NCBI GenBank assembly: GCA_030533005.1
Contig: JAUNJX010000006.1
Location: 14,146-78,145, forward strand
DNA length: 64,000 nt
From: Clostridia bacterium
GTDB lineage: Bacteria > Bacillota > Clostridia > Christensenellales > CAG-138
Reading direction: 5' to 3'
Positions 15,697 through 38,598 of this stretch are shown piece after piece; positions within the stretch are counted from its first letter, which is position 1; every line of letters begins with the position of its first letter. A program made the translations under genes and the position numbers. Below the pieces are notes generated by a model. That model saw only the letters and a list, made by a program, of their open reading frames with translations. It searched no databases and was not told the DNA's origin.

Positions 15697-17232
15697 TCAT
15701 TCCCACTCTATCGTTCCCGGCGGTTTGCTCGTGATATCATAGACCACGCGGTTCACATGCGGCACCTCGCCGATGATACGTTCGCTGATGCGGCGCAGCA
15801 CTGGATAGGGAAGCTCCGCCCACTCCACGGTCATGGCGTCTGTGGAGGTGACAGCGCGCACGCCGATCGCATAATCATAGGTGCGCTGATCGCCCATAAC
15901 GCCCACGCTGCGAAGGCCGGTAAAGACGGTAAAATATTGCCAGATATCGTTTTCCAGCCCCGCCTTGGCGACCTCGTCGCGCAGGATAAAATCGCTTTTG
16001 CGAAGAATGTCGAGCTTTTCCTCCGTAATATCCCCGATGACGCGGATGGCGAGACCCGGGCCGGGGAAGGGCTGCCGCCAAACCAGCTTGTGCGGGATGC
16101 CCAGATGCTCGCCCAAGGCGCGCACCTCGTCCTTAAAAAGCATGCGCAGCGGCTCGAGCAAGCCCTTAAAGCCAATGTCCTTTGGCAGCCCGCCTACGTT
16201 ATGATGGCTTTTGATGGTATCCGCCGCTCCCGTGCCGCTTTCAATCACATCCGGATAGATGGTGCCCTGCAAAAGATAGTCTGCGCCGCCCAGCTTGCGC
16301 GCCTCCTCCTCGAATACGCGGATGAATTCCGCACCAATGATCTTGCGCTTCTGCTCCGGTTCCGTCACGCCCGCAAGCTTTGCAAGAAACCGCGCGCGCG
16401 CGTCCACCGCGATGATGTTGAGCTTGAGGGTATCGCGGTAAAAGGCCATGACCTCCTCCGCCTCGTTAAGACGCAGCAGGCCGTGATCCACAAATATGCA
16501 GGTGAGCCTGTCGCCTATGGCCTGATGCACCAGCACGGATGCCACGGAGGAATCCACGCCGCCCGAAAGGGCGCCCAGCACCCTGCCGTCACCCACCTGG
16601 CTTCGCACGCTCTTTATAAGCGCATCCGCCATGCCCGCCGTGCTGTATGTGCAGCGGCAGCCGCAGATATTTTGCAGGAAATTGCGGAATATCAGCTCCC
16701 CCTGCGGCGTATGCGCAACCTCGGCGTGGAACTGGATGCCGTATAGCCGCCGCGCGTCATCCGCAAAGGCCGCTACGGGGCAATGCTCCGTTTGGGCGAT
16801 GCTCACAAAGCCCTGCGGCAGCGCCGTCACGGCGTCGTTATGGTTCATCCACACGATGTTGCCGTCTATGCCCGCAAAGAGAGGATGCTTTGCAAAGCGT
16901 ATGGCGGTGCGGCCATACTCCTTCACGTCGGCTGCACGAACCCCGCCGCCAAAGACCTTTACCATGTACTGCATGCCATAGCAGACGCCAAGTATCGGTA
17001 CGCCAAGGGAAAACACCTCGTCAAGGCAGGTCTTGGCGTCCGGCGCGTAGACGCTGTCCGGCCCGCCTGTCATGATAATGCCCGAAAGGGCGTCGCCTTT
17101 GATCTTGTCGATACCCGATTTGTGCGAGAGCAACTCGCTGAACACGCCCGCTTCCCGCACGCGCCGCGCGATCAACTGATTGTACTGCCCGCCAAAGTCC
17201 AGCACCACGATACGTTCCCTGTCCTGCGCCAT
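15697..17232 (-). CDS. guaA: GMP synthase (glutamine-hydrolysing)
   Basis: 511 aa with a GATase domain, ATP-PPase motif SGGVDSSV and the canonical C-terminal ...PPGTIEWE. Confidence 0.95.
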
Positions 17233-17280: not shown

Positions 17281-21013
<3,733 letters not shown>

Positions 21014-25639: not shown

Positions 25640-25670
25640 ATTTTTCATATATTATTGGGAGGTCATCGGC

Positions 25671-26876
25671 ATGCAGTACACCCAACAGGATGTGATGGAT
25701 TATCTGCGGGAGGAGGACGTAAAGTTCATACGGCTTGTCTTTTGCGACGCGCTGGGCGTGGTCAAGAACATCTCCATTATGGAAAGCGAGCTGCCGCGCG
25801 CCTTTGCAAACGGCATCTCCTTTGATGCCTCAGCCATACGCGGCTTTTCGCAGGAGGAACGCTCCGATCTGTTTTTGCTGCCCGATCCCTCCACGCTGGC
25901 GCTGTTGCCCTGGCATCCGGCGCAGGGGCGCGTGGTGCGCATGTTCTGCGACGTCAAGTCGCCCGGCGGCGACGCATATGCGCTGGACACGCGATTTTTG
26001 CTCAAGCGCGCCGTAGAGGACGCCGCGCAGGCGGGCGTCTGCTGCGATATCGGCGCCGAATTTGAATTCTATCTTTTCCGCACGGACGCAAACGGCGCAC
26101 CCACGGATACGCCGATCGATCAGGCGGGCTATATGGATATGGCGCCGGAGGACGCGGGCGAGATCGTGCGGCGGGAAATCTGCCTGACCCTGGAGGAAAT
26201 GGGCATACGCCCCGAAACCTCCCACCATGAGGAGGGCCCGGGGCAAAACGAGATCGATTTTCGTTTCAGCGACCCCGTATCCGCCGCGGACAACGCCGTC
26301 ACCGTCAAAACCGTCATCAAAACCATCGCTGCGCGCAACGGCCTGTACGCCTCCTTCGAGCCAAAGCCCCTGGCGCGGCACGCGGGCAGCGGCATGCACA
26401 TCAACATATCGCCGCAGGGCGACTGCTTCCAAGCCTTTATGGCGGGCATACTGGAGCACGTCAGCGAGCTTACCATCTTCTTCAACCCCACCGTGAAATC
26501 CTATGAACGTCTGGGCGGCTACAAAGCGCCGCGCTACATCACATGGTCGCCTGAAAACCGCACGCCGCTGATCCGCATCCCTGCGGCAGAGGACGCGCGC
26601 AGGCGCATCGAGCTTCGCTCCCCCGACGCCATGGCCAATCCGTATCTTGCCTACGCCGTACTCATACAGGCGGGGCTGGACGGCGTAAGGCGCGGACTTA
26701 TACCGCCCGTGCCCTGCAACATCAACCTCTATACGGCCTCCGACGACATACTCTCCCGCTATGCCATGCTGCCAGCCACGCTGGAGGCCGCCGCCGCCTG
26801 CATGCAAAAAAGCGATTTCGTGCAGCGCCTGCTGCCCCCTCGCCTGATCCGCACCTACTGCGAGCTGGCGCGCTAG
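25671..26876 (+). CDS. glnA: type I-like glutamine synthetase (short, 401 aa)
   Basis: GGGAGG RBS before the ATG at 25671 (the ORF track starts earlier, at 25578). Motifs FDASAIRGF, EFEFYLF, HHEEGPGQNEIDF, GSGMHINIS and NRTPLIRIP. Confidence 0.9.
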   Translation: MQYTQQDVMDYLREEDVKFIRLVFCDALGVVKNISIMESELPRAFANGISFDASAIRGFSQEERSDLFLLPDPSTLALLPWHPAQGRVVRMFCDVKSPGGDAYALDTRFLLKRAVEDAAQAGVCCDIGAEFEFYLFRTDANGAPTDTPIDQAGYMDMAPEDAGEIVRREICLTLEEMGIRPETSHHEEGPGQNEIDFRFSDPVSAADNAVTVKTVIKTIAARNGLYASFEPKPLARHAGSGMHINISPQGDCFQAFMAGILEHVSELTIFFNPTVKSYERLGGYKAPRYITWSPENRTPLIRIPAAEDARRRIELRSPDAMANPYLAYAVLIQAGLDGVRRGLIPPVPCNINLYTASDDILSRYAMLPATLEAAAACMQKSDFVQRLLPPRLIRTYCELAR

Positions 26877-26880
26877 GGTC

Positions 26881-27462
26881 ATGCAGGAGCGGGCGCAAAA
26901 AAGCATACTGGTAGTATCCGGGACGGATAAGCTCAGGGAAGCGCTTTCGTCCTTATTGCCTTGCGCCGAATTCGTGCTATATACCGCCGCCTCCTGCGCC
27001 GAGGCGCGGCGCATGCTGCTGCGCTGCCAATACGACGTTATTCTTATCAGCGCCCCGCTCCCGGATGAATTCGGCACGACGTTCGCTTTGGATCTTGCGC
27101 AGCGCAATTCCTCCGGCGTCATTTTGCTGGTGCGCGGCTCCTTGTTTGAGGAAATATGCGCTAAGGTGGAAAGCTACGGCGTGCTGACGGTGGAAAAGCC
27201 CACGCCGCGCCCCGTCCTCTACGCCGCCATACGCATGGCCGCCGCCATGCGCGCGCGCCTTGCCCGCGCCGAAGCGCAAACACAAAGCCTGACCGCCAAA
27301 ATGGAAGAAATACGCATCGTCAACCGCGCCAAATGGGTGCTGATCAAATATCTCAATATCGACGAGGCGCAAGCCCACCGACACATCGAAAAGCAGGCCA
27401 TGGATCGGCGCTTATCCAAGCGGGAGGTCGCAGAAAAGATCATCAGCACCTATGAAGGATAA
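26881..27462 (+). CDS. ANTAR-domain RNA-binding antiterminator with pseudo-receiver domain
   Basis: 193 aa. The C-terminal EEIRIVNRAKWVLIKYLNIDEAQAHRHIEKQAMDRRLSKREVAEKII is an ANTAR domain. The N-terminal receiver-like fold has Ser where the phospho-acceptor Asp is expected (DVILISAP) and no acidic pair. Confidence 0.85.
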   Translation: MQERAQKSILVVSGTDKLREALSSLLPCAEFVLYTAASCAEARRMLLRCQYDVILISAPLPDEFGTTFALDLAQRNSSGVILLVRGSLFEEICAKVESYGVLTVEKPTPRPVLYAAIRMAAAMRARLARAEAQTQSLTAKMEEIRIVNRAKWVLIKYLNIDEAQAHRHIEKQAMDRRLSKREVAEKIISTYEG

Positions 27463-28535: not shown

Positions 28536-29660
28536 CTATGCTTCCACCTGCCGCTTGCCGGTATAGCGGAAAGCCGTAAAGGGACGATAGCTATAGCACA
28601 TCCCCGCTTCACCGCAAAGCGCGGGCGCTTTATCCATATAATACACCGTCACGTCCAGCCCGTCCTGCGTCCGCCGCGCCGTATAATCCAAAACGCCGTC
28701 ACAGGCAAAAAGCCGTTCGTCCAAAGCCGCGATGCGCGCATCCCGGCCGCGCACCCACAGGCGCTTAAGAAAGCTGCCGCAGGCGCAGGGCGCAAGCGTA
28801 AGCTTCGCCATATCCCCCGTTCGGTAGCGCAAAAGCGGCATAGCTTCCCTATTCAGCGTCGTCACCACCAGCTCGCCCCATTCGTCATAGACCACCTTTC
28901 CCTCCTTGACGATCTCCAGATACAGGTCATTTTCCCGTATGTGCATGCCGTCGTGCGCGCCGCAATCGATGGCGCAGCCATAGCCCGTTTCCGTCATGCC
29001 AAAATGCGAATACGCTTCCACCCCCATGCTTCGCAATCGCGCAAGCAGCGCGCGCGGCACATAGTCGGAGGAAAGCAGCGCCTTTTGCGGCAGCTCTTGC
29101 CCCCTTGCGCGCAAAAGCGCGCATAAGCACAGCATCTGCACGGGCGTGCCGACAACGCTTTGCGCCACGGGCAATGACGCCGCGTCCCGCAGCAAGCCCA
29201 CGCGCAAAGGCGTCGCACCCATACGCGCAAGTCCCCGCGCAAGCAAATCGCCCACGCCGTCCGGCGTTTCGCAGGGCAGGCACATGGCGCAGCTTTCCCC
29301 GCGCGCCGCCACAAGCCGCATGCCATGCGCAAAATAATCCACCGTATGCTCTAAATCGTCCCGCGTAAAATACAGCCGTTTGGGCGCGCCCGTCGTGCCG
29401 CTCGTCTGCTGGGTGACGATGCGCTGTATGCCGTCACTCGATACGCAGAGCATCCGCGCGCCCTGCTCTTTCAGATCGTCCGCCGTGATAAAAGGCAGCG
29501 CCTCAAAATCCGCAAGCGTCCGCACGGCGGGATAGTGCTTATAGAACAGCGACGCGCGCGCTTTCTCCACCGTTTGGGAAAGCAAAGCGGGCAGCGCCGC
29601 GCCATAAGCCGCCCTGCCCTCTATCCCATGCTTTTCCTTTATCCAATCATCCAGTATCAT
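28536..29660 (-). CDS. PaaK / coenzyme-F390-synthetase-like adenylate-forming enzyme
   Basis: 374 aa. P-loop-like TSGTTGAPKRLYFT and overall PaaK architecture. It is the last gene of the accessory operon and shares an ATGA overlap with the radical SAM gene. Confidence 0.8.
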   Translation of the reverse strand: MILDDWIKEKHGIEGRAAYGAALPALLSQTVEKARASLFYKHYPAVRTLADFEALPFITADDLKEQGARMLCVSSDGIQRIVTQQTSGTTGAPKRLYFTRDDLEHTVDYFAHGMRLVAARGESCAMCLPCETPDGVGDLLARGLARMGATPLRVGLLRDAASLPVAQSVVGTPVQMLCLCALLRARGQELPQKALLSSDYVPRALLARLRSMGVEAYSHFGMTETGYGCAIDCGAHDGMHIRENDLYLEIVKEGKVVYDEWGELVVTTLNREAMPLLRYRTGDMAKLTLAPCACGSFLKRLWVRGRDARIAALDERLFACDGVLDYTARRTQDGLDVTVYYMDKAPALCGEAGMCYSYRPFTAFRYTGKRQVEA

Positions 29661-30949
29661 CTGCCCCGGTACAGCGTCCTTCCGTCCGCAGCGCTCAAAT
29701 TATAAGCGCAAAACGGGATAAGCTCCACCTTGCCCTCTTTCCGCCGCACAACGTTGATATAGCAGCGCTTGAGCCGCTCTATGTCCAGCGTCCACGCGTC
29801 CATAAAGGCCATGGCGGATACGGCAAGCGTCTGATTTTCGAGCTTGTCTAAAAACGCGTCGAACACATCCGGCTGCGCCTTCGGTTCGCGCACGCGCCGC
29901 GCGCCCGACCAGCGTTTGGCCACGAATTTTCGTGACCGCGCCGACGCGTCCGCAGACGTTCCGCAGCCGCAGCCCGCGCCGCAGCGTTTGAGCGACCCGT
30001 CCTCATTTTGCATGAAGTTGGCGGAAAAGGAGCAATGCGCGTCCTCGGCGTTGCCCGGCGCAAAATCCACCGCGCGCATGCGTCCTTGCGTCTGCGTTTC
30101 TATATCGCAAAGCAGCTTCGGCAGCGTATAGCGTGCAGCGTCCACCTCACAGCGTCCAAAGCGGCTCATGGGCTGAAAGTGCACGCCGCGCACCGCAGGC
30201 ATGCGCGAAAGCGCATACTCCAGTATCGCGCCGACCTGATCGTCGTTGACGCCCGCCGCCACGGTAGGTACCAGCACCACGCCCACGCCCGCCTTTTCGC
30301 AATGCTCTATGGCCGCAAGCTTGGTTTGCAATAACGCTTTGCCGCGCAGGATTTCATAGCTGTGCTCATTCATGCCGTCAAATTGCAGAAAGACGCAGTT
30401 GAGACCCGCATCCGCAAGGCTCCGGATATAGGCTGCATCCTCCGCAATGCGGATTCCGTTGGTGTTAAGCTGAAAAAAGGAGAAGCCCTTCTCTTTGCCT
30501 ATGCGGATGATCTTAGCAAGATCGTCCCGTACGGTGGGCTCGCCGCCGGAAAGTTGGATGTTGAAGGGGCCGCCCATCTCCATCATCCCGTCAAAGCAGG
30601 CCGTGATATCCTCCATGGGCATATCCGCGCCCTGCCCGGCCTTTGCAAAGCACACAGGGCAGCCAAGGTTGCATCTTTGCGTCACCTCCAGCAGCACGCA
30701 GCATGTGCGCTGCGCGTGCGCCGGGCACAGCCCGCAATCGTAAGGGCAGCCCTTATCCTCCCCACGCGCCGGACGCACCGGCGCCACGGCGGGATGTTCT
30801 TCCCCCCACGCCGCATAATCCCCCTGCCATATGAGCGTTTTAAACGCGCCGTGCTCCGGGCAGGTTTTATATAGATAGGTGTCGCCGTTCTCCATGCGCC
30901 GCTGTGCTTGGAGCACACGCAGGCACACGGGACATACGCTTTGGGTCAT
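29657..30949 (-). CDS. radical SAM enzyme with N-terminal zinc-ribbon (MJ0619/Tes-like architecture)
   Basis: 430 aa. N-terminal CPVCLRVLQAQ...YKTCPEHGAF, CxxxCxxC cluster motif CNLGCPVC, and a C-terminal Cys-rich stretch CGAGCGCG. Confidence 0.85.
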   Translation of the reverse strand: MTQSVCPVCLRVLQAQRRMENGDTYLYKTCPEHGAFKTLIWQGDYAAWGEEHPAVAPVRPARGEDKGCPYDCGLCPAHAQRTCCVLLEVTQRCNLGCPVCFAKAGQGADMPMEDITACFDGMMEMGGPFNIQLSGGEPTVRDDLAKIIRIGKEKGFSFFQLNTNGIRIAEDAAYIRSLADAGLNCVFLQFDGMNEHSYEILRGKALLQTKLAAIEHCEKAGVGVVLVPTVAAGVNDDQVGAILEYALSRMPAVRGVHFQPMSRFGRCEVDAARYTLPKLLCDIETQTQGRMRAVDFAPGNAEDAHCSFSANFMQNEDGSLKRCGAGCGCGTSADASARSRKFVAKRWSGARRVREPKAQPDVFDAFLDKLENQTLAVSAMAFMDAWTLDIERLKRCYINVVRRKEGKVELIPFCAYNLSAADGRTLYRGR

Positions 30950-31236
30950 GTATTGATCTCCTCATCCAAAAAATGCTCGAATGCCTGCTTTTTCTCCTGC
31001 CACGCCGCATCCGGATAGCTTACCTTGAAGCGGGTGTCGCCCAGCACGCCCTTGATCTCCATGCCGCCGCCGCGCACAAAATAAAAGGGGCGGCGGTAAT
31101 TGCGCTTGATCTCGACCTCCCCGAAAGGAGAGAGCGCCGCTACAGCCGCCTCGTCCATCACAAAGGGGGACGCATAGGCATAGGTCTGCGCGTCCACAAA
31201 ACAGTTTTCGCTTTTTTCTACCTGAAAGGCGCTCAT
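30946..31236 (-). CDS. hypothetical 96-aa protein
   Basis: The ORF is coupled by ATGA overlaps on both sides. I recognise no motif. Confidence 0.6.
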   Translation of the reverse strand: MSAFQVEKSENCFVDAQTYAYASPFVMDEAAVAALSPFGEVEIKRNYRRPFYFVRGGGMEIKGVLGDTRFKVSYPDAAWQEKKQAFEHFLDEEINT

Positions 31237-32354
31237 GCAAGTATCTCCTTCACGGCCTGCACCACGCTCTCCACCTCCTCGCGGGAGGTGAAGCGGGACA
31301 TGGAAAGCCGCACCGAGCCGCGCGGGTCAAAGCCCGCATAGGGCGGCAGCAGCGGCGCGCAATGCAGTCCCGTGCGGCAGATGATATCGTAGGCTTCATT
31401 GAGCACCTCGCCCATATCCGCAGGCGGCATGGCAGAGGTGAACGCCATGACGGGCGTGCGCGCGCCTTCGACGCGCACGGGCACAGCGCCGGATGAGAGC
31501 AAGCCCTCCTCTAAAATCGCCATGTTGCGATCCAGCGCCGCCGCGTCCAAAGGATGCGCAGCAAGCCATTGCAGGCTGTACGCTAAGCCTTCCATGCCCT
31601 GCTCGTTGGGCGTGCCCGCCTCCAGACGCAAGGGCAGCGTTTCGGGCATCGTCCAGCTATCGGAATGTATGCCAGTGCCGCCTGTATAGACCGGCGAAAG
31701 CTTGATATCCTCCCTTACATACAGGCAGCCCGTCCCCTGTGGGCCAAGCAGATATTTATGCCCCGTGACGGCCAGCATGTCGATCCCCCACGCCTCGGGC
31801 AGCACAGGCACAAGCCCCATGGTCTGCGACGCGTCGAGCACCGTAACCGCGCCCGCCTTTTTGCAAACCGCCGCAAGCGCCGCTGCATCGTTGATGGCGC
31901 CCGTTACGTTGCTCGCGTGCAAAAACGCGCACAGACGCGGCGCATGTTCCTTTACGGCGCGGGATAAGGTTGCCTCGCTTAGCCGCCCGTCCTTTTGTAC
32001 GGGCAGCACGATAAAGTCCTTGATGCGCCCCTGTTGTTTCAGGGCATACAGCGGGCGCAGCATGGAATTATGCTCCGCAGCCGTCGTCAGCGCCACATCC
32101 TCTTTCTTCCACGGGAAGCCCAAGAGGGCGATGTTGAGTGCCTGCGTGGAATTCTGCGTATAGACGATGCGCGCTTTATCCTGCACGCCAAGCAATGCAG
32201 CAAGCAGCGCACGCGCGTCCAAGGCAGCGTTTTCTTCACCCGACGCGCGGTGCGAAGCACCCGGCAGCCGCTCCATCACCGCCGCCATATGCGCCCCTAA
32301 GCCGGGCGCTTTGGGAAAGCTGGTCGCGGCGTTGTTCCAATACAGCTTGCTCAT
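31233..32354 (-). CDS. class-V aminotransferase / cysteine-desulfurase-like (NifS/CsdA-like) enzyme
   Basis: I prefer the start at 32354 (MSKLYWNNAATSFPK...), which gives an ATGA overlap with the upstream stop. The region ...AVTGHKYLLGPQGTGCLY... contains the PLP-lysine context. Confidence 0.8.
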   Translation of the reverse strand: MSKLYWNNAATSFPKAPGLGAHMAAVMERLPGASHRASGEENAALDARALLAALLGVQDKARIVYTQNSTQALNIALLGFPWKKEDVALTTAAEHNSMLRPLYALKQQGRIKDFIVLPVQKDGRLSEATLSRAVKEHAPRLCAFLHASNVTGAINDAAALAAVCKKAGAVTVLDASQTMGLVPVLPEAWGIDMLAVTGHKYLLGPQGTGCLYVREDIKLSPVYTGGTGIHSDSWTMPETLPLRLEAGTPNEQGMEGLAYSLQWLAAHPLDAAALDRNMAILEEGLLSSGAVPVRVEGARTPVMAFTSAMPPADMGEVLNEAYDIICRTGLHCAPLLPPYAGFDPRGSVRLSMSRFTSREEVESVVQAVKEILA

Positions 32355-32773
32355 GCGAACACGCCCTTTTCCATCAGCATGTTCATGATAAACTCGAACG
32401 CATCCTGTACGATGGGCAGGCACACGGAAATGCTCTTGGAAAAATCGCCGTTTACGATATTTCGGCAATCACACCCGCCATGCTTTTGCGCGACGTTTTG
32501 CATAAACCACTCCACATAATCCGCGATCATCCTTTCCACGTCGGGATGCGCGGGCTCCTCCATATCGCCCTGCCCCGTAAAAAGGCCGATGATGGCGCAG
32601 CCCGCCGTGAGCACCCCGCAGGTATGCCCCGTGCGTCCCATACCGCGCGTAAGGCCGCTCATGGCGCGAACAAGATCGGCGTTTTCCATGCCTTGGGTGT
32701 CCAGCGCAAGCTGCATCATGATCTGGCTGCACGCCATACCCGCGCGCGCAAGCTCCAACATTCTCTCCTCCAT
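32351..32773 (-). CDS. C_GCAxxG_C_C family protein
   Basis: 140 aa from the ATG at 32773, preceded by an AGGAGG RBS. The family motif is seen as HTCGVLTAGC, plus downstream CDC and C residues. Confidence 0.8.
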   Translation of the reverse strand: MEERMLELARAGMACSQIMMQLALDTQGMENADLVRAMSGLTRGMGRTGHTCGVLTAGCAIIGLFTGQGDMEEPAHPDVERMIADYVEWFMQNVAQKHGGCDCRNIVNGDFSKSISVCLPIVQDAFEFIMNMLMEKGVFA

Positions 32774-32786: not shown

Positions 32787-33335
32787 CTATATTTTCTGAT
32801 AGACCGCCAGCGTGTACCGCTTTGCGCCGCAAAGCGGAAAGGGTGCGTCGTTGTTCCATAACCAGCGCGCGCCAAAGGCGCGCAAGGCATCCGTAGCGTC
32901 CCGCTCCCGCAGCAGCGCAAAGCCCTCCATCGCTTCCGCTGCGCCCAAATCGCCCAGCAGCAGCAGCCCCTTTGGCGCGAGCACGCGCAAAAGCTCCTCG
33001 CGCGCCGCGTCCCATTTGCCCGTTTCCTGCAAGGGGTAGCGCATGCAGCCCATATGGGCGATAGAAAATGCGCCGTCAGCAAAGGGCAGCGCCGCCGCGT
33101 CCGCCTGTACAAATTGGGCTGGCGGGCAGCGCTTTTTCGCAATTTGCAGCGCCGCATCCACCAAGTCTATTCCCGTTACCTCACAACCCGCCCGCGCAAA
33201 TACGGCGGCGGCTTCGCCCGTGGAGCAGCCTATGTCCAATACGCTTCCCCGCGCCTCCCCCAAGAGCCAAAGGATGCAGAATACATCCTCCACGCCGCCG
33301 GCGCAAAGCCACGCGTCCGACGCGTACAGGCTCAT
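32787..33335 (-). CDS. class I SAM-dependent methyltransferase
   Basis: 182 aa with motif I VLDIGCSTGEAA and an acidic loop GIDLV. Confidence 0.8.
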   Translation of the reverse strand: MSLYASDAWLCAGGVEDVFCILWLLGEARGSVLDIGCSTGEAAAVFARAGCEVTGIDLVDAALQIAKKRCPPAQFVQADAAALPFADGAFSIAHMGCMRYPLQETGKWDAAREELLRVLAPKGLLLLGDLGAAEAMEGFALLRERDATDALRAFGARWLWNNDAPFPLCGAKRYTLAVYQKI

Positions 33336-33553
33336 TTATCCTCCAAGGCGCGCTCCACCTGCAAGATCTTGCCCAGCGCCAGCTCCTCGGGGATGAAATA
33401 CTGGCCGCACTGCGGGCAGACCGGCATTTCGATAGGGAAATCGTTGCCCATGTACATGAGCGTCACGGGGCCTTTTACCATTTCCACACCGCATTTTTCG
33501 CAGCGCAGCTCGCCCTTGGTAAGATCATAGCTTGCATGATAATTCGTGCTCAT
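33332..33553 (-). CDS. small zinc-ribbon protein (73 aa)
   Basis: MSTNYHASYDLTKGELRCEKCGVEMV...MPVCPQCGQYFIPEE. The ATG at 33553 makes an ATGA overlap with the upstream stop; the ORF track starts earlier. Confidence 0.7.
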   Translation of the reverse strand: MSTNYHASYDLTKGELRCEKCGVEMVKGPVTLMYMGNDFPIEMPVCPQCGQYFIPEELALGKILQVERALEDK

Positions 33554-35742
33554 ACGCGCACCTCCATACGGTGGCTGTAGGCTCGCTCCACCTGATACCC
33601 GTCCTTTTCGGGATGATAGTACACCCATACGGTGATATGGCCTATGCGTTTATGGGCGATAAAAAGCCCGGTTTCGCCGTGTAGCAGCTTATCGTTGGTG
33701 CGCTCCGCCGCCTCGACGGCCTCGCGGATATGCTGTTCGAGTATCAGCCGCTCCTCCAGCTTTTTGGCTACATCCTCGCTGTAGTAGAGCGGAAAATGCA
33801 GCAGCCACGGCTTCTCCTCCTCACCGTACACATCCTTCAAAATCCCAAGGCGCAGCCTCTCCCGGTTGTCGCGGCGTTGGGAATAGGTGGGCGGCTCATG
33901 CTCTGCCATGCCGTAGGCAAGCTCCAGGATATGCACGGCCTTGCCGCCGTTTTTGCTAAAGCGATCCCGGCAATTCATGCAGTAGGTCAAATACATCGCG
34001 CCATCGGGTGCCGCAAGCGCCGCAGCCTCGTTAGCGACCTCCGGGTTCGCGTATTGCGTATAGCCGCCAAAGCCGCAGCAGCCGGTGGTTGCCCCGCTGT
34101 ATTTCTGCTCCGTAACGATGCAGCCCATCCTGTGCAGCAGCTCGCGCACGGCGTCCCGTACAGCAGGCATATCCCGCGCGCCGCAGGCGTCGTGCACACA
34201 CACGTCGCAGGCGATATGCTCTATCGGCAGCGTTTCAAGCAAAATATCCCATATGCCGATGCAATCCGCCCACTCCAGCGTTTTCATGCAGGTGGGACAG
34301 GCGACGATCAGCTTAGGCTTACCCAAGCGCGCCCATTCCGCCTTGAGCTTTTCCTGCGTATCGGCAAAGAGCTGTTCCCTGCCTGCCCACAGCGCGCCTA
34401 TGCCGCAGCAGCCAAGCAGAATGCCCGTTTGCGATTCGCGCTTCAACAGATCGTCGAACACCCTTTTGACAAGCTCGGGCGCGGACGCGCCCAGCTGACA
34501 GCCCGGAAAAAAAAGATACTTGCATGTATCGCTTCCCGGCGCGGGCTTTGCCAAATACGACGGGCCGTTGCTGTCTGCAAGATCGTCCAAGGCAAAATCA
34601 AAGGGCCATTGGGGCATGTGATTGGTTGCAGCCATAACGGCGCGGGACTGCATGAGCAGCGCCCCCAGATTCATGCCGCCGGGGCACAGCTTTTCACACT
34701 GCCCGCAAAGGCTGCATGAATTGATGGCGGTATTCGCCGTGCGGTTGCCCATGCTCATGGAGATGTTGGTCACGACCTCACGGGTAAACTGCCGGGGATA
34801 GGTCTTATAATGCTGTAGAAAAGCGCATGCGTCCACGCAGCGCATGCAGGTGCATTGGATGCAGCGGGCAGCCTCGGCCTTTGCCCAATCCGCGTCCTTT
34901 TCCCCTGCCGCCATGCCCTGCGGCTCGACGCCCTCGGTTTTTACATACAGGGTCGTTGTAAAAGGCCCCTCCTGTTCACGCCCATAGCGCAGGTTGACCT
35001 TTTTGAGATATCGATCTACAGAGGTCGCGGCCTTCTTGCCGCCCGCGATACAGCAAAGCACGCCCGCATCCGGGTTTGCACAAGCGCCGCAGGCAAACAG
35101 CCTGCCGCCCGCCTCCACCTCGCCCGTATCCTCTATGATCTCGACCGGCGCATCCGCGCCCATGGCAAGGATCACCGCATCAAAATCCGCCGCGTTTTCC
35201 GGCTCCATATTTGTATGGTATTGGATCTCTATAGGATAGTCCGCAAGCACGGCACAGTCCGCGGCAAAGCAGGCAAGCGCCGCTTCGTCCGCCTTGAGCG
35301 TGCCGCCCAGCGCGTCCGATCTTTCAAACAGCGTGACATGCACGCCCTTTTTTCCTAACTCAAGCGCCGCCGTGACGCCGCTTACGCCGCCGCCGATCAC
35401 CGCCGCCGTATCGCTGCGCCGGGGCAAAAAGGATCTTCGCGCCTTTCGCGTGCCCTCGCGCACCGCCGCTTCCTCGATGGCGCGCATATCGATAGCGCCC
35501 CCCAAGTCCTTTCGCGCGCAAACCGCCATACAGGGTGCAGTGCACAGGGCGCTCAACGTGCGCGGCAAGGGCACGACCTTCGCGTACAGCTCCAGCGCCG
35601 CCGAAAAATCACCCTTGCTTACAGCCTCGCACACCGCGCGGCACTCCACATGCAACGGGCATCCCGCCATGGCAGGCGGGGGCTGCTGTTGGGTACAGCG
35701 CGCTTCGATCTCATATAGGGTTTTCTGGTCGATCATCTGCAT
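33550..35742 (-). CDS. multidomain FAD/NAD(P)-binding + 2x[4Fe-4S] + double CCG-domain oxidoreductase
   Basis: 730 aa from the ATG at 35742, with GGTGGAG 8 nt upstream. It has a GltD-like Cys cluster, dinucleotide fold VIGGGVSGVTAALEL, ferredoxin motifs CIQCTCMRCVDAC / CSLCGQCEKLCP, and CCG-type motifs (FFPGCQL, CPTCMKT, GCCGFGG). Confidence 0.85.
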   Translation of the reverse strand: MQMIDQKTLYEIEARCTQQQPPPAMAGCPLHVECRAVCEAVSKGDFSAALELYAKVVPLPRTLSALCTAPCMAVCARKDLGGAIDMRAIEEAAVREGTRKARRSFLPRRSDTAAVIGGGVSGVTAALELGKKGVHVTLFERSDALGGTLKADEAALACFAADCAVLADYPIEIQYHTNMEPENAADFDAVILAMGADAPVEIIEDTGEVEAGGRLFACGACANPDAGVLCCIAGGKKAATSVDRYLKKVNLRYGREQEGPFTTTLYVKTEGVEPQGMAAGEKDADWAKAEAARCIQCTCMRCVDACAFLQHYKTYPRQFTREVVTNISMSMGNRTANTAINSCSLCGQCEKLCPGGMNLGALLMQSRAVMAATNHMPQWPFDFALDDLADSNGPSYLAKPAPGSDTCKYLFFPGCQLGASAPELVKRVFDDLLKRESQTGILLGCCGIGALWAGREQLFADTQEKLKAEWARLGKPKLIVACPTCMKTLEWADCIGIWDILLETLPIEHIACDVCVHDACGARDMPAVRDAVRELLHRMGCIVTEQKYSGATTGCCGFGGYTQYANPEVANEAAALAAPDGAMYLTYCMNCRDRFSKNGGKAVHILELAYGMAEHEPPTYSQRRDNRERLRLGILKDVYGEEEKPWLLHFPLYYSEDVAKKLEERLILEQHIREAVEAAERTNDKLLHGETGLFIAHKRIGHITVWVYYHPEKDGYQVERAYSHRMEVRV

Positions 35743-35785
35743 TCGTTTTTCTCCACCTAACCGATCTGTTTCATATTGTAATTCC

Positions 35786-35794
35786 ATTATAGCA
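35786..35794 (-). promoter_or_regulatory. extended -10 element TGcTATAAT (candidate promoter of the accessory operon)
   Basis: Read on the minus strand, between the mop terminator and the RBS of the oxidoreductase gene. Confidence 0.4.
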
Positions 35795-35807: not shown

Positions 35808-35840
35808 AACAAAAGAAAGGGACGCCCGTTTGGGCGTCCC
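35808..35840 (-). terminator. intrinsic terminator after mop
   Basis: GGGACGCCC-AAAC-GGGCGTCCC (9-bp perfect stem) followed by TTTCTTTTG on the minus strand, 14 nt after the mop stop. Confidence 0.75.
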
Positions 35841-35853: not shown

Positions 35854-38598
35854 TTACTTGCCCATCGCGTCGATGGCTGCCTTGACCTTTTCGGGCTTGG
35901 CGGGAATCTCGAACACGCGCGCGCCTGTAGCGTCATGGATGGCGGACAGGACGGCGGGATGCACGGCGGTGAGGGGGCCTTCGCCGCAGCCGGCAGCACC
36001 GTAGGGGCCGTCGGGACGGTAGGTCTCGGTGAAGATGAGGTTATAATCGTCGGGGATATCCAAGATGGTGGGGATACCCGCGCCAAGCAGCGTCGTATGC
36101 TTCTTATAATCCTCAAAGTCCTCGGTGAGCGCCAGACCCATGCCCTGTGCGCAGCCGCCGTAGGTGGAGCCTTCCACGACCAGCTTGTTGATGATGGTGC
36201 CGTAATCGGCAACGGTGGTGAACTTGATGATGCGGGTCTTGCCCGTCGCCATATCCACCTCCACCTCGGGGATAAAGAGCTGGTACATGTAATTGGAGAA
36301 GGGCGCGCCCTGTGCCGTGTCCGCGTCGCAGTCGGAGCACATGGAGGCCGTCCAGGAGCCCTCATAATAGGTGGGGATCTTCTCTGCTTCCATTTCGGCA
36401 TAGGTGCGATAGGTGCCATCGGGCTTCTTCATCGCCGCAAGCAGCATTTCGGAAGCTACGCGCACCGCGTTGCCGGTAACGGTGTTGGAGCGGCTGCCGC
36501 CCGCGGGGCCGGAGGCCGGGGTGTAGGCGGTGTCGTTCATCACGAGCTTGATGCGCTCCGGCGTGAAGCCCGCTGCGCGCAGCGTCTCATGCGCCATGGC
36601 GAGCGTACCCATATCAGCGCCCTGGCCGTGATCCTCCCAAGAATCGTATACGGTGACCGTATTGTCAGGATTGAGGCGGATGTTGGCGAACGAGCTATCC
36701 TTGCCGTCCAGACCGCAGCCGTATACGCCCACGGAGAAGCCAACGCCGTATTTCTTGCTGCCGTCGCTTTGAGCGTTCAGTTTCTTGGCGCGCTCCTTGG
36801 CCTCGTAATACACGGGGCGGGCTTTCTCAAACATGCCCTCTAAGCAGTACACCTCGGGGGTCTGGCCGGTAGGCGTGGTAGCGCCCTCACGGTAGATGTT
36901 CTTATAGCGCAGCTCGAAGGGATCCATGCCGAGCTTTTCCGCCAGCACATCCATGCAGACCTCGCTGCCCATGAAGGACTGCGGCGAGCCGTAGCCACGG
37001 AACGCGGAGCCCCATACATGGTTGGTGCATACGCAGTAGCTTGTGTTGCGGATATTGGGGATATCGTAGCCTGCACCCGTGAACTGGGAAAGGCGCATGG
37101 TCAGCAGATCGCCAAACTCGGAATACGGGCCGTGATCCACATAGTTTTCGCCCCACATACCCAAGAGCTTGCCGTCCTTGTTGGCGGCCATCTTGACGTG
37201 CATGAAGGCGGGAGAACGCTTGCCGGTGTAGGTCAGGTTCTGATACATATCATAGACCAGCGAAACGGGACGGCCATCCAGCGCCAAGCATGCCACACCC
37301 AGCAGGGATTCAGAGGTGGGGGAGAACTTGTAGCCGAAGGTGCCGCCGGCGTTGTTCTGGACGATGCGCAGCTTGTCGCCCTCGACGCCGATGCCGGTGC
37401 CGATCATGGCGGCATGCAGATGGATGCCGACGGACTTGGAGTGGATGGTCAGACGGCCTTCCTCATCCATGTAGGCATAGCCGCAGTCCGGCTCCAAATG
37501 CAGATGGGGCTGACGGGAGCAGTAGGATTCGATCTCGGCCACGCAATCGGCCTTTTGGAAGATGGGTTCTACCTCCTCGCCCTTGGCGCAGGTGGTATCG
37601 TAATAGACGTTGGGCGTGCCCGGATGGATCTCGATCGCGTCGGGCGCCTTTGCTTCCATCGCGCTCATGTAAGCGGGCAAGGGTTCGATGTCCACCTTGA
37701 CGGCCTTGGCGGCAGCCTTGGCATGCTCCACGGTATCCGCAGCGACCATGGCGACCGCGTCGCCGATCTGGAACACCTTCTCATCGCAGAGGATGGGACG
37801 ATCCCAGCCGTCGCCCTTGTTGTGGGTGGGGAAGAACACCAAACCGTTGATGCGGTTGTTGCCCTTGACGTCCTTGGCGGTAATGACCTTGTATACGCCG
37901 GGCATCTTTTCCGCTTCGGAGAAATCGATGCCCTTGATCTTGCCGTGCGGTATGTCAGACTGCACCAAGGCAAGGCGTGCGGTACCCTCGGGCATCTTGA
38001 GCGCGTCGTCCGCGCCGAAATCCCATGTGCCCATAACCTTCGCCATGGCGGAGGGGCGCACGAACTCGGTGCCTACGATCTTGTTGCCGACGGGCTTGAA
38101 GATCAGATCTTCCTTCTTCATTTCGCCGCGCATGACCTTGGCGGCGTCCATAACGGCGTCTACCAGAGGCTTATAGCCTGTGCAGCGGCAAAGGTTTTTG
38201 TGGTCGTAGAACCACTGGCGAACCTCCTCGCGGGTGGGGGAAGGATTCTCGGCCAACAGCGCCTTCGCGCTCATGATAAAGCCGGGCGAGCAGAAGCCGC
38301 ACTGCGCGCAGCCGTGACCCATCCATGCAAGCTGCAAGGGATGCAGGTTTTCGGGGCAGCCGACGCCTTCGATGGTCTCGATTTGCGTACCGTCCTCAAG
38401 CTTGCTCATCTTGAGGATACATGCACGCTGCGCCTTGCCGTTGACCAGCACCGTACAAGCGCCGCACTGGCCTACGCCGCAGGATATCTTACAGCCCGTA
38501 AGGTGCTCCTGTTCGCGCAGAACCTTGGCAAGGGTATCGTTGGGATCGACGATAATCGCCTTGCGCGCCCCATTGATCGTTAATACCTTTTTGATCAT
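35854..38598 (-). CDS. mop: molybdopterin-dependent aldehyde oxidoreductase, Mop type (2x[2Fe-2S] + Mo-pterin domains, no FAD domain)
   Basis: 914 aa. It is collinear with the Desulfovibrio gigas MOP sequence as I remember it (CGVGQCGACTV, GCAQCGFCSPGF, CRCTGYKP, GDGWDRPILCDEKVFQ, GGTFGYKFSPTSE, WGSAFRGYG). Confidence 0.9.
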   Translation of the reverse strand: MIKKVLTINGARKAIIVDPNDTLAKVLREQEHLTGCKISCGVGQCGACTVLVNGKAQRACILKMSKLEDGTQIETIEGVGCPENLHPLQLAWMGHGCAQCGFCSPGFIMSAKALLAENPSPTREEVRQWFYDHKNLCRCTGYKPLVDAVMDAAKVMRGEMKKEDLIFKPVGNKIVGTEFVRPSAMAKVMGTWDFGADDALKMPEGTARLALVQSDIPHGKIKGIDFSEAEKMPGVYKVITAKDVKGNNRINGLVFFPTHNKGDGWDRPILCDEKVFQIGDAVAMVAADTVEHAKAAAKAVKVDIEPLPAYMSAMEAKAPDAIEIHPGTPNVYYDTTCAKGEEVEPIFQKADCVAEIESYCSRQPHLHLEPDCGYAYMDEEGRLTIHSKSVGIHLHAAMIGTGIGVEGDKLRIVQNNAGGTFGYKFSPTSESLLGVACLALDGRPVSLVYDMYQNLTYTGKRSPAFMHVKMAANKDGKLLGMWGENYVDHGPYSEFGDLLTMRLSQFTGAGYDIPNIRNTSYCVCTNHVWGSAFRGYGSPQSFMGSEVCMDVLAEKLGMDPFELRYKNIYREGATTPTGQTPEVYCLEGMFEKARPVYYEAKERAKKLNAQSDGSKKYGVGFSVGVYGCGLDGKDSSFANIRLNPDNTVTVYDSWEDHGQGADMGTLAMAHETLRAAGFTPERIKLVMNDTAYTPASGPAGGSRSNTVTGNAVRVASEMLLAAMKKPDGTYRTYAEMEAEKIPTYYEGSWTASMCSDCDADTAQGAPFSNYMYQLFIPEVEVDMATGKTRIIKFTTVADYGTIINKLVVEGSTYGGCAQGMGLALTEDFEDYKKHTTLLGAGIPTILDIPDDYNLIFTETYRPDGPYGAAGCGEGPLTAVHPAVLSAIHDATGARVFEIPAKPEKVKAAIDAMGK

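What the first reader, a model, noticed from the sequence alone, without database searches (positions are those of the whole stretch)
29657..30949. Radical SAM enzyme with pterin-methylase/Tes-like N-terminal zinc ribbon encoded beside a pterin-dependent enzyme
Seen: N-terminal SVCPVCLRVLQAQRRMENGDTYLYKTCPEHGAFKTLIWQGD, followed by the CNLGCPVC radical SAM motif and a C-terminal Cys cluster (CGAGCGCG).

Recollection: this CPxC...K(T)CPEHG ribbon immediately before the radical SAM core is the architecture of the archaeal MJ0619 family (C-methylation of 6-hydroxymethyl-dihydropterin in methanopterin synthesis) and of the related tetraether synthase Tes.

Inference: a member of a family that acts on pterins sits in an operon downstream of a molybdopterin enzyme, together with a separate SAM methyltransferase and an adenylating enzyme. 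That raises the possibility of a covalently modified (for example methylated) pterin cofactor, or of a modification on the Mop protein itself.
Basis: partly seen in the sequence, partly recalled or inferred. Interest (0 to 1): 0.65.

Follow-up and report, generated by a model that had tools for sequence, protein, structure and literature searches.

The report
TrsS radical SAM beside aldehyde oxidoreductase
This gene encodes a member of the already catalogued TrsS family, a bacterial cousin of the archaeal lipid-coupling enzyme Tes that almost always sits in one operon with a molybdenum aldehyde oxidoreductase; its reaction is still unknown, but the idea that its family acts on pterins rests on an annotation that has since been overturned.

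Summary
It passes the curated NCBIfam model for "radical SAM (seleno)protein TrsS" (587 bits, cutoff 490) and fails the Tes model (328 bits, cutoff 450). Its only close structural relative is GDGT-MAS/MJ0619 (TM 0.80). That enzyme was reassigned in 2022 from pterin methylase to lipid C-C coupling, so the premise "a family that acts on pterins" no longer holds.

The link to the Mop-type aldehyde oxidoreductase is real and strong. Mop lies upstream in 45 of 49 relatives, and 3 of 3 Mop orthologues chosen without knowledge of their neighbours carry TrsS. In other genomes TrsS is fused to the adenylating enzyme, to a methyltransferase, to a MocA-like NTP transferase, and to the 96-aa protein encoded just upstream here. 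NCBI already curates this neighbourhood (the DVU_1551-1557 families).

Crystal structures of the D. gigas orthologue show an ordinary cytidine dinucleotide cofactor, which argues against a methylated pterin. My best reading is a Tes-like radical enzyme inside a Mop-linked accessory module that probably handles sulfur or selenium. The substrate is unknown. This is a new member of a known family and of moderate interest.

The parts
29657..30949 (-). trsS: radical SAM (seleno)protein TrsS, Cys form, 430 aa
   Evidence: NCBIfam NF045646 gives 587 bits against a cutoff of 490, covering residues 2-428. Pfam finds PF23545 and PF04055. Foldseek's top hit is 7TOL with TM 0.80. There is no in-frame TGA.
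30824..30946 (-). N-terminal Cys3His ribbon (residues 2-42; C6, C9, C30, H33), predicted to bind a rubredoxin-like mononuclear iron
   Evidence: PF23545 matches with E 1.9e-18. The spacing is identical to the GDGT-MAS site C9X2C12X20C33X2H36.
30716..30748 (-). C68-x3-C72-x2-C75 plus H78: predicted N-terminal auxiliary [4Fe-4S] site
   Evidence: These residues are invariant in the family alignment. They align with C73/C77/C80 plus His of GDGT-MAS.
30698..30703 (-). Cys83-Cys84 pair just before strand beta-1; specific to TrsS (Ile-Leu in GDGT-MAS)
   Evidence: Invariant in the 16-sequence alignment, although some distant representatives have C-T or C-S here. Its role is unknown.
30215..30688 (-). 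Radical SAM core (residues 88-245), including C93-x3-C97-x2-C100 at 30650-30673 and the GGEP SAM-binding motif
   Evidence: PF04055 matches with E 8e-19. The motif residues are invariant.
29696..30034 (-). C-terminal domain holding C306, the C327/C329 loop, M380, C396 and C414: predicted second auxiliary cluster, reduced relative to Tes
   Evidence: Residues 367-418 align with GDGT-MAS 446-494 (chain numbering). Met439 aligns with M380, Cys438 with A379 and Tyr459 with V400. Residues 301-366 have no counterpart alignment. The model has low pLDDT over residues 325-339.
30946..31236 (-). 96-aa partner protein with no family assignment; has an invariant N11-C12-F13 motif
   Evidence: It overlaps trsS by the 4-nt ATGA. 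It is homologous to the N-terminal domain fused to Blautia TrsS (E 1e-20). It co-occurs with the class V aminotransferase in 18 of 18 loci where either is present. The model has pLDDT 89 and no PDB fold match.
31233..32354 (-). Class V aminotransferase of cysteine desulfurase / selenocysteine lyase type, 373 aa
   Evidence: PF00266 matches with E 5e-59. TIGR01977 gives 299 bits (below the 377 cutoff) and SclA gives 225 bits (below the 525 cutoff). The PLP-lysine motif GHK and the catalytic cysteine motif LHCA are both present.
32351..32773 (-). DVU_1555 family C-GCAxxG-C-C protein
   Evidence: NF045669 gives 153 bits against a cutoff of 103. The ATG start at 32773 was refined.
32787..33335 (-). 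Class I SAM methyltransferase, 182 aa
   Evidence: PF13649 and PF08241 match. The DVU_1556 model gives only 73 bits, below the 155 cutoff. Methyltransferase::TrsS fusions exist elsewhere.
33332..33553 (-). DVU_1557 family small redox protein (DUF7479)
   Evidence: NF045645 gives 94 bits against a cutoff of 60. In L082 this domain is fused to the C-terminus of the dicluster oxidoreductase.
33550..35787 (-). Pyridine nucleotide-disulfide oxidoreductase / dicluster-binding protein with a CCG domain
   Evidence: NF045663 gives 773 bits against a cutoff of 530. Pfam finds Fer4_20, NAD_binding_8, Fer4_17 and CCG.
35819..35840 (-). Terminator-like hairpin between mop and the accessory genes (9 pairs, 8 of them G-C, then a T run)
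   Evidence: Found by the consensus scan. This is a pattern match only.
35854..38598 (-). Mop-type molybdopterin-dependent aldehyde oxidoreductase, 914 aa
   Evidence: NF045668 gives 1539 bits against a cutoff of 1100. It is a full-length orthologue of PDB 1VLB/1SIJ and 1DGJ.
28536..29660 (-). DVU_1553 family AMP-dependent ligase (PaaK-like), 374 aa
   Evidence: NF045666 gives 334 bits against a cutoff of 300. It overlaps trsS by ATGA. TrsS::ligase fusions occur in four independent clusters.

Best explanation
The gene encodes a Cys-type member of the TrsS family. TrsS is a bacterial offshoot of the Tes/GDGT-MAS radical SAM lineage.

Shown:
- It keeps the rubredoxin-like Cys3His iron site, the N-terminal auxiliary [4Fe-4S] site and the SAM-cleaving [4Fe-4S] site of GDGT-MAS.
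- Its C-terminal domain is shortened. That domain lacks the second lipid pocket and the conserved Tyr459 of GDGT-MAS, but retains Met380, Cys396 and Cys414 and adds invariant Cys306 and the Cys327/Cys329 loop.
- It is translationally coupled to a 96-aa single-cysteine protein upstream and a PaaK-like adenylating enzyme downstream.
- The whole set lies in one operon behind a Mop-type aldehyde oxidoreductase, and this arrangement is conserved across several phyla.

Inferred:
- TrsS cleaves SAM to a 5'-deoxyadenosyl radical and abstracts a hydrogen from its substrate, which is not a membrane lipid.
- The substrate radical is captured at the C-terminal cluster or cysteines, as in the carbon-sulfur intermediate of GDGT-MAS. 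Without a second substrate pocket, the reaction ends as carbon-sulfur (or, in selenoprotein members, carbon-selenium) chemistry rather than lipid tail coupling.
- The cysteine desulfurase-like enzyme loads sulfur or selenium onto Cys12 of the 96-aa protein, which delivers it to TrsS.
- The ligase and the methyltransferase act on the same substrate.
- The module serves the Mop enzyme, more probably in maturation, activation or repair of its active site than in free metabolism.

It is not a pterin C-methylase.
For: Family identity: NF045646 gives 587 bits against a cutoff of 490 over the full length, while Tes gives 327.6 bits against 450.

Architecture: Pfam finds PF23545 and PF04055. The match to 7TOL has E 2.4e-79 over residues 2-300 and again over 367-418. 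Foldseek gives TM 0.80 and 33% identity to 7TOL; the next hit, MoaA, has TM 0.42. Metal-ligand residues are invariant.

Operon: six of eight gene junctions are ATGA overlaps.

Synteny: among 49 loci with enough upstream flank, Mop is present in 45, the dicluster oxidoreductase in 46, DVU_1557 in 45 and C-GCAxxG in 42. The ligase is present in 59 of 67 loci with enough downstream flank. All 3 Mop orthologues picked without knowledge of context carry TrsS downstream.

Fusions: TrsS is fused to the AMP ligase in 4 clusters, to a methyltransferase in 2, to an NTP transferase (with or without HD) in 2, and to DUF5714 (MbdU-like) in 2. The 96-aa domain is fused to Blautia TrsS (E 1e-20).

Sulfur/selenium supply: the aminotransferase and the 96-aa gene are present together in 18 loci and never singly. 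The aminotransferase has the PLP lysine and the catalytic cysteine. The 96-aa family has one invariant cysteine.

Link to Mo cofactor handling in relatives: XdhC 'aldehyde oxidoreductase maturation factor' NF045664 and the MocA-like NF045665 lie inside the cluster, with a molybdate-type ABC transporter alongside in L084.

Carbon-sulfur intermediate in the relative: PMC9433317 abstract.
Against: No biochemical or genetic data exist for any TrsS, so substrate and product are unknown.

As isolated, D. gigas AOR needs no sulfido ligand and shows no sulfur at Mo beyond the dithiolene. There is therefore no known sulfur- or selenium-containing feature of Mop for the module to build.

TrsS is not strictly tied to Mop. 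It stands alone among housekeeping genes in L016. L091 has a methyltransferase-DUF7479-aminotransferase-TrsS-TrsS-ligase module with no Mop within 6 kb.

The aminotransferase and 96-aa pair is absent from 31 of 49 loci.

Fusions between genes that are adjacent in an operon show co-function only loosely.

This window lacks XdhC, the NTP transferase and the phosphatase that are found in relatives.

The model's C-terminal cysteine loop has low confidence, so I could not check whether the proposed cluster ligands sit together in space.
Confidence: 0.45

Rival explanations
1. One reading: TrsS is a pterin C-methylase, or another enzyme that modifies pterins, and it covalently alters the molybdopterin cofactor of Mop.
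For: Synteny with Mop is tight. XdhC and a MocA-like NTP transferase lie inside the cluster in relatives, and NTP-transferase::TrsS fusions exist. The Pfam ribbon domain still carries the old HMPTM name.
Against: The pterin methylase activity of MJ0619 could not be corroborated, and the structure shows a narrow hydrophobic pocket judged unlikely to bind a pterin (PMC9433317). The D. gigas AOR structure at 1.28 A shows unmodified pyranopterin cytidine dinucleotide (PMC3877041), and the window's Mop is its orthologue. TrsS has no cobalamin domain or other recognisable methyl-donor module. A separate class I methyltransferase already covers ordinary methylation.
Confidence: 0.07
2. TrsS, the ligase and the methyltransferase form a small-molecule pathway, either catabolic or detoxifying, possibly acting on an organo-sulfur, organo-selenium or metalloid compound. 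Mop oxidises an aldehyde intermediate of that pathway. The module does not mature Mop.
For: The physiological substrate of Mop is unknown, and the enzyme accepts many aldehydes. A PaaK-like ligase could activate the acid that Mop produces. Modules without Mop exist (L091; L016). Many cluster members are selenoproteins in other species, and one fused domain resembles the 'metal-binding' MbdU. XdhC and MocA-like genes would accompany any operon that contains Mop.
Against: No transporter, regulator or further catabolic enzyme is conserved in the cluster. The ligase is fused to TrsS rather than to Mop. A terminator-like hairpin separates mop from the accessory genes, which fits low-level accessory expression, but that evidence is weak.
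Confidence: 0.22
3. TrsS is a protein-modifying maturase. It acts on Mop itself or on a partner protein (the DVU_1557, C-GCAxxG-C-C or 96-aa protein), for example by making a thioether or selenoether crosslink or by modifying a cysteine.
For: Small cysteine-rich proteins are always adjacent. The 96-aa domain is fused to TrsS in Blautia, and many members carry Cys-Cys-rich inserts. Many radical SAM enzymes with auxiliary clusters act on peptides (hits).
Against: No SPASM, twitch or RiPP-recognition domain was detected. DUF7479 is a domain of the oxidoreductase in some genomes, so it is not a precursor peptide. D. gigas AOR structures report no modified residue. The adenylating enzyme, the NTP transferase and the phosphatase point towards a small molecule.
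Confidence: 0.12
4. TrsS is a bacterial tetraether or membrane-spanning lipid synthase that couples lipid tails as Tes does.
For: Its closest solved relative is GDGT-MAS. Bacterial homologues of unknown role were noted by Lloyd et al.. Bacillota make membrane-spanning lipids.
Against: It fails the Tes model cutoff. It lacks alignment to the roughly 115-residue lipid-pocket segment, and the strictly conserved Tyr459 is Val400 here. The context is a molybdoenzyme operon with no lipid genes. Bacterial membrane-spanning lipid synthesis is attributed to Mss, which co-occurs with ger.
Confidence: 0.05

Closest known systems
TrsS, 'radical SAM (seleno)protein TrsS' (NCBIfam NF045646; named in Haft & Tolstoy 2025, mSystems 10:e0141724, cited in PMC13188914)
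   Same: The protein matches the full length of the model above the curated cutoff. It has the same two Pfam domains and the same gene neighbourhood: Mop-type AOR NF045668, dicluster oxidoreductase NF045663 and the DVU_1553/1555/1557 families.
   Different: This is a Cys form with no in-frame TGA. It lacks the Cys-Cys-rich acidic insert that many members carry. Its closest relative is only 81% identical. Its cluster has the aminotransferase and 96-aa pair but lacks XdhC, the DVU_1551 NTP transferase and the phosphatase within 64 kb.
GDGT-MAS / Tes (MJ0619; PDB 7TOL, 7TOM), the archaeal tetraether lipid synthase
   Same: It shares the rubredoxin-like Cys3His site with identical spacing, the N-terminal [4Fe-4S] site (CX3CX2C plus His), the radical SAM core, the Met439-equivalent residue (M380) and two C-terminal cysteines. 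The fold match has TM 0.80 at 33% identity.
   Different: It scores below the Tes model cutoff. The segment between the core and the C-terminal cluster is about 66 residues instead of about 115, so the second lipid pocket is missing. Tyr459 is replaced by Val and Cys438 by Ala. It has an extra invariant Cys83-Cys84 pair, Cys306 and a Cys327/329 loop. The host is bacterial and the context is a molybdoenzyme operon, not lipid genes.
Sulfur-inserting radical SAM enzymes that use an auxiliary cluster as sulfur donor (LipA, BioB, MiaB/RimO)
   Same: This comparison concerns how it may work, not membership. All have a radical SAM core plus an auxiliary Fe-S cluster close to the substrate. Here a dedicated cysteine desulfurase-type enzyme and a single-cysteine carrier accompany the gene in many genomes. 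The relative GDGT-MAS forms a substrate carbon to cluster sulfur bond.
   Different: There is no sequence-level membership in any of these families (one search lists none of them). The sulfur-donor role is inferred, not shown.
Moco maturation for xanthine oxidase family enzymes (XdhC with NifS4 in Rhodobacter; ABA3-type Moco sulfurase; MocA)
   Same: A class V cysteine desulfurase-like enzyme lies beside a xanthine oxidase family enzyme. XdhC and MocA-like genes lie inside the same cluster in relatives.
   Different: Those systems need no radical SAM enzyme, adenylating enzyme or methyltransferase. D. gigas AOR does not need the sulfido ligand that those systems install.
MoaA (GTP 3',8-cyclase), the radical SAM enzyme of pterin cofactor synthesis
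   Same: It is the next-best radical SAM core match (77 bits; fold TM 0.42) and is the only pterin-pathway radical SAM enzyme among the hits.
   Different: The score is far below the cutoffs (231-325 bits). MoaA lacks the ribbon and N-cluster domains, and its C-terminal domain is different.

Membership tests
TrsS (NCBIfam NF045646) | Whole-protein score at or above the curated cutoff, over the full model length | tested here: met
   587 bits against a cutoff of 490; residues 2-428 match model positions 3-441 of 441.
TrsS (NCBIfam NF045646) | Domain architecture: HMPTM-type ribbon followed by a radical SAM core | tested here: met
   PF23545 covers residues 2-42 and PF04055 covers 88-245. All 120 listed homologues have the same two domains.
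TrsS (NCBIfam NF045646) | Conserved neighbourhood with the Mop-type AOR and the DVU_155x accessory families | tested here: met
   All of these families are found in the window above their cutoffs, except the methyltransferase.
TrsS (NCBIfam NF045646) | Cys or Sec at the family's selenocysteine position | not testable with these tools
   The Sec position could not be located. None of the 80 close loci has an in-frame TGA. Four truncated gene calls turned out to be start-codon miscalls or an assembly gap. The paper that describes the site is not held.
Tes / GDGT-MAS (NCBIfam NF045702; PDB 7TOL) | Whole-protein score at or above the curated cutoff | tested here: not met
   327.6 bits against a cutoff of 450; only residues 2-331 align.
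Tes / GDGT-MAS (NCBIfam NF045702; PDB 7TOL) | Rubredoxin-like C-x2-C-x20-C-x2-H site, N-terminal CX3CX2C plus His cluster, and radical SAM CX3CX2C | tested here: met
   C6/C9/C30/H33, C68/C72/C75/H78 and C93/C97/C100, compared.
Tes / GDGT-MAS (NCBIfam NF045702; PDB 7TOL) | C-terminal domain with a second hydrophobic lipid pocket | tested here: not met
   Residues 301-366 do not align with chain residues 333-445; about 66 residues stand in place of about 115. The pocket itself was not examined in three dimensions.
Tes / GDGT-MAS (NCBIfam NF045702; PDB 7TOL) | Tyr459, strictly conserved in about 1000 archaeal homologues | tested here: not met
   It aligns with Val400 (alignment, chain numbering equals native plus 20; conservation statement).
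Class D radical SAM pterin methylase (the original MJ0619 annotation) | Demonstrated methylation of a pterin by the founding member | tested here: not met
   From the literature: the activity could not be corroborated and the enzyme was reassigned to lipid coupling (PMC9433317).
MoaA | Score above the curated cutoff | tested here: not met
   75-78 bits against cutoffs of 231-325.
SPASM/twitch peptide maturases | A SPASM or twitch C-terminal domain, or an equivalog score | tested here: not met
   There is no SPASM Pfam hit. All such NCBIfam models score below 70 bits against cutoffs above 265.
Mss (bacterial membrane-spanning lipid synthase) | Sequence similarity to characterised Mss and co-occurrence with ger | not tested
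No ger or plsA-like gene lies in the cluster.

The most novel reading that the evidence does not exclude
TrsS, the adenylating enzyme, the methyltransferase and (in relatives) the MocA-like NTP transferase with HD domain and the phosphatase together build or repair a labile sulfur- or selenium-containing feature of the Mop active site or cofactor. This feature has never been seen because Mop enzymes have only been studied after aerobic purification. If so, bacterial Tes homologues would be metallocofactor maturases rather than lipid enzymes.
Probability: 0.15. Interest if true: 0.85.

Novelty: new member of a known kind. Interest (0 to 1): 0.4.

Why it matters
Two open questions meet at this locus. 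Lloyd et al. 2022 noted that GDGT-MAS homologues occur in bacteria that make no biphytanyl lipids and left their role open. The Desulfovibrio-type aldehyde oxidoreductase has been studied for forty years, yet its physiological substrate, its redox partner and the reason it needs no sulfido ligand remain unsettled.

The conserved operon, the gene fusions and the paired desulfurase and carrier genes make a concrete, testable proposal: the bacterial Tes homologues work with this molybdoenzyme. The family and its neighbourhood are already curated and published, so this window adds one more member rather than a discovery.

Practical value of the present work:
- It corrects an out-of-date premise (MJ0619 as a pterin methylase).
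- It shows that the 96-aa ORF belongs to the system.
- It lists which accessory genes are core and which are optional.

Tried and rejected
1. Locating the selenocysteine site of the family. Many representatives start at 'VLLEVT', right after Cys83-Cys84, or near residue 25, after the first CxxC. I suspected hidden UGA codons. Reading the DNA showed in-frame read-through with no TGA in L082, L089 and L091, and an assembly gap inside a Cys-Cys repeat in L090. These are gene-caller artefacts, so I dropped the idea.

2. Reading the paper that named TrsS (Haft & Tolstoy 2025). It is not held. The 2022 preprint by Haft & Gwadz does not mention this system.

3. Searching the literature for DVU1552-DVU1559, and for 'GCAxxG' with 'aldehyde oxidoreductase' or 'radical SAM'. 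No functional data were found.

4. Fold search for the 96-aa protein. No match reached E of 0.001 or better; the weak TBP-half-like and McrD hits were not taken as evidence.

5. Measuring distances between C-terminal cysteines in the model. The coordinates are not exposed.

6. Public sequencing runs for habitat or transcription. None were listed.

7. Searching the window for XdhC, the NTP transferase, the phosphatase and DUF364. None were found.

8. tRNA-Sec in the window. There are no tRNA genes at all, so nothing can be said about selenium use by this organism.


Full report
OBSERVATION

The ORF at 29657-30949 on the minus strand is real. It encodes 430 aa, starts at ATG behind a GAGGAG ribosome-binding site, and overlaps both neighbouring genes by the 4-nt sequence ATGA.
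- an N-terminal C6-x2-C9-x20-C30-x2-H33 ribbon (Pfam PF23545, E 1.9e-18);
- the radical SAM motif C93-x3-C97-x2-C100 inside a PF04055 core (E 8e-19);
- CGAGCGC at residues 323-329.

In a family alignment the ligand residues of all these sites are invariant or nearly so. The exception is C323, the first cysteine of the C-terminal run.

WHAT IT IS

Against the curated NCBIfam library, the protein matches the equivalog model 'radical SAM (seleno)protein TrsS' (NF045646) over its full length, at 587 bits against a cutoff of 490. The tetraether synthase model Tes (NF045702) reaches only 327.6 bits against a cutoff of 450 and covers only residues 2-331. Everything else, MoaA included, scores below 80 bits.

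The only close solved relative is GDGT-MAS from Methanocaldococcus jannaschii, the product of mj0619. The sequence match has E 2.4e-79 over residues 2-300 plus a second short stretch at 367-418. An AlphaFold model (pTM 0.84) matches 7TOL with TM 0.80 at 33% identity. The next hit is MoaA at TM 0.42.

The family is large, with about 8000 hits at E of 1e-20 or better, and RefSeq already names its members TrsS. The closest relative is 81% identical and comes from an Eubacteriales metagenome-assembled genome.

THE PTERIN PREMISE

They are the same protein. Lloyd et al. 2022 report that they could not corroborate the pterin methylase activity. Their structure shows a narrow hydrophobic pocket unlikely to bind methanopterin, and the enzyme couples phytanyl tails through an intermediate carbon-sulfur bond to an auxiliary cluster (PMC9433317). 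They also note that the 'ribbon' binds a rubredoxin-like iron. The inference 'a family that acts on pterins sits beside a pterin enzyme' therefore has no basis. The same paper remarks that bacterial homologues of unknown role exist.

HOW TrsS DIFFERS FROM Tes

From the alignment (chain numbering equals native plus 20), the three N-terminal metal sites are conserved, Met439 aligns with Met380, and two C-terminal cysteines align with Cys396 and Cys414. The differences are these:
- Cys438 is Ala379.
- The strictly conserved Tyr459 is Val400.
- The roughly 115-residue segment that forms the second lipid pocket is replaced by about 66 residues that do not align.
- TrsS adds an invariant Cys83-Cys84 pair, invariant Cys306 and the Cys327/Cys329 loop.
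- Many members carry Cys-Cys-rich acidic inserts. This one does not.

THE NEIGHBOURHOOD

Nine co-directional genes run from 38598 down to 28536:
1. Mop-type aldehyde oxidoreductase (NF045668, 1539 bits);
2. a pyridine nucleotide-disulfide oxidoreductase / dicluster protein with a CCG domain (NF045663);
3. a DVU_1557 family small redox protein;
4. a class I methyltransferase;
5. a DVU_1555 family C-GCAxxG-C-C protein;
6. a class V aminotransferase of cysteine desulfurase type;
7. a 96-aa protein with no family;
8. TrsS;
9. a DVU_1553 family PaaK-like AMP ligase.

Six of the eight junctions are ATGA overlaps. A terminator-like hairpin lies between mop and the rest. The flanking genes are unrelated: a CarB fusion upstream and a YitT-type membrane protein downstream.

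CONSERVATION

I fetched 80 genomic loci carrying TrsS relatives, from Clostridia, Negativicutes, Synergistaceae and others. Among the 49 with at least 8 kb upstream, Mop is present on the same strand in 45, the dicluster oxidoreductase in 46, DVU_1557 in 45 and C-GCAxxG in 42. The ligase follows TrsS in 59 of 67 loci with enough downstream flank. In the reverse direction, three Mop orthologues chosen only for lineage and contig length all carry the accessory set, TrsS included, downstream.

The link is not absolute. In L016, TrsS sits alone among housekeeping genes. L091 has a methyltransferase-DUF7479-aminotransferase-TrsS-TrsS-ligase module with no Mop within 6 kb.

FUSIONS

Among representatives of 50%-identity clusters, TrsS is fused to:
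- the AMP-binding ligase (four clusters);
- a class I methyltransferase at either end (two);
- a MobA/MocA-like NTP transferase, with or without an HD domain (two);
- DUF5714 (two), a domain that resembles the 'metal-binding double selenoprotein MbdU'.

In Blautia the N-terminus of TrsS carries a domain homologous to the window's separate 96-aa protein (E 1e-20). That small protein and the aminotransferase are present together in 18 loci and never singly. The small protein has one invariant cysteine in an N-C-F motif. Its model is confident (pLDDT 89), but no solved fold matches it. The aminotransferase has both the PLP lysine and the catalytic cysteine of desulfurases.

LINK TO MOLYBDENUM COFACTOR HANDLING

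In many relatives the cluster also holds XdhC and an NTP transferase. NCBI names the XdhC an 'aldehyde oxidoreductase maturation factor' (NF045664, 432 bits). The NTP transferase belongs to the DVU_1551 family, and its N-terminal half resembles the cytidylyltransferase MocA (145 bits, below the 186 cutoff). A CobC-like phosphatase is often present as well. In L084 a molybdate-type ABC transporter lies alongside. None of these genes is present anywhere in this 64-kb window.

EVIDENCE AGAINST A MODIFIED COFACTOR

The window's Mop is a full-length orthologue of the crystallised D. gigas and D. desulfuricans enzymes (about 1200 bits). The D. gigas enzyme at 1.28 A contains ordinary pyranopterin cytidine dinucleotide. 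Anomalous scattering shows only the two dithiolene sulfurs near Mo, and the enzyme needs no sulfido ligand (PMC3877041; PMC10223205). That argues against a methylated pterin. It also leaves no known sulfur feature for an accessory system to install.

Two cautions apply. Those enzymes were purified in air. I also did not verify that D. gigas has the accessory genes. The family names point to D. vulgaris DVU_1551-1557, and I know from memory, not from a tool, that DVU1559 is its aldehyde oxidoreductase.

MECHANISM

Shown:
- family identity;
- the four predicted metal sites;
- the reduced C-terminal domain;
- translational coupling with the 96-aa protein and the ligase;
- conserved operon membership and the fusions.

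Inferred:
- TrsS makes a 5'-deoxyadenosyl radical and abstracts a hydrogen from a substrate that is not a membrane lipid.
- The radical is captured at the C-terminal cluster or cysteines, as in the carbon-sulfur intermediate of GDGT-MAS. Without a second substrate pocket, the chemistry ends in carbon-sulfur (or carbon-selenium) bond formation.
- The desulfurase-like enzyme and the 96-aa carrier supply the chalcogen.
- The ligase and the methyltransferase work on the same molecule.
- The module serves Mop.

I give this 0.45 overall. The identity part is near certain and the chemistry is speculative.

The rivals are:
- a stand-alone small-molecule pathway in which Mop oxidises an aldehyde intermediate (0.22);
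- a protein-modifying maturase (0.12);
- lipid tail coupling (0.05). Bacterial membrane-spanning lipids are attributed to a different enzyme, Mss, which co-occurs with ger.

NOVELTY

The family has a curated model and a name. The neighbourhood is covered by a block of NCBIfam models (NF045663-NF045669), and a 2025 paper is cited for it. This is therefore a new member of a known kind whose function is unknown. I could not read that paper, so I cannot say whether the 96-aa partner, its strict pairing with the aminotransferase, or the list of fusions has been described before.

Noticed in passing
window 30946-31236 (-): A 96-aa protein with no Pfam or NCBIfam family. It has an invariant N-C-F cysteine, a confident predicted fold with no PDB match, is fused to TrsS in Blautia, and is always paired with the class V aminotransferase. 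It may be an undescribed sulfur or selenium carrier.
   Followed up: yes
P0041 / L023 about 9700-10000; L090 2500-2900: Blautia TrsS proteins carry a tandem Cys-Cys repeat linker (TAECC-D/N-N/R, more than 12 copies) between the 96-aa domain and the ribbon. The repeat breaks assemblies: L090 has a run of N there. Many other TrsS proteins have Cys-Cys-rich acidic inserts near residue 355. The purpose is unknown; metal or chalcogen binding is a guess.
   Followed up: partly
window 35819-35840 (-): A strong terminator-like hairpin (9 pairs, 8 of them G-C, then a T run) lies in the 66-nt gap between the mop stop codon and the next gene. It could set a high Mop to low accessory-gene expression ratio. 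This is a pattern match only.
   Followed up: no
window 33550-35787 (-): The dicluster oxidoreductase (GltD-like NAD(P)/FAD module, 4Fe-4S dicluster and HdrD-like CCG domain) follows Mop in nearly every locus. It could be the 'missing' flavin partner of Mop. Alternatively, together with the two small cysteine proteins, it could act as a reductase that reverses the dithiolene oxidation reported to inactivate D. gigas AOR (PMC3877041).
   Followed up: no
L091 2856-9974: A variant module of methyltransferase, DUF7479 (168 aa), a 204-aa unknown, a class V aminotransferase, two tandem TrsS-like genes and the ligase, next to an aldo-keto reductase and a cupin, with no Mop within 6 kb.
   Followed up: partly
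L082 7576-7870; L089 about 20560-20854; L091 about 5905-6001: Metagenome gene callers repeatedly start TrsS at an internal GTG/ATG (Val85 or about residue 25), although the upstream frame is open and encodes the ribbon. Many database entries for this family are therefore N-terminally truncated and lose the PF23545 domain.
   Followed up: yes
window 1-64000: This cluster lacks the XdhC maturation factor, the DVU_1551 NTP transferase and the CobC-like phosphatase that sit inside the cluster in many relatives. None is found anywhere in the window.
   Followed up: yes
window 39367-43401 (-): A 1344-aa protein is a fusion of the carbamoyl-phosphate synthase large subunit with a C-terminal diaminopimelate epimerase domain (PF01678, E 1e-49).
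   Followed up: partly
window 8000-16000: G+C drops to 0.46-0.47 here, against 0.55-0.61 over most of the window. This may be acquired DNA. I did not examine it.
   Followed up: no
window 25668-27462 (+): A glutamine synthetase gene is followed directly by a response-regulator-like protein with an ANTAR RNA-binding domain. This looks like an antitermination-controlled nitrogen unit and is unrelated to the finding.
   Followed up: no
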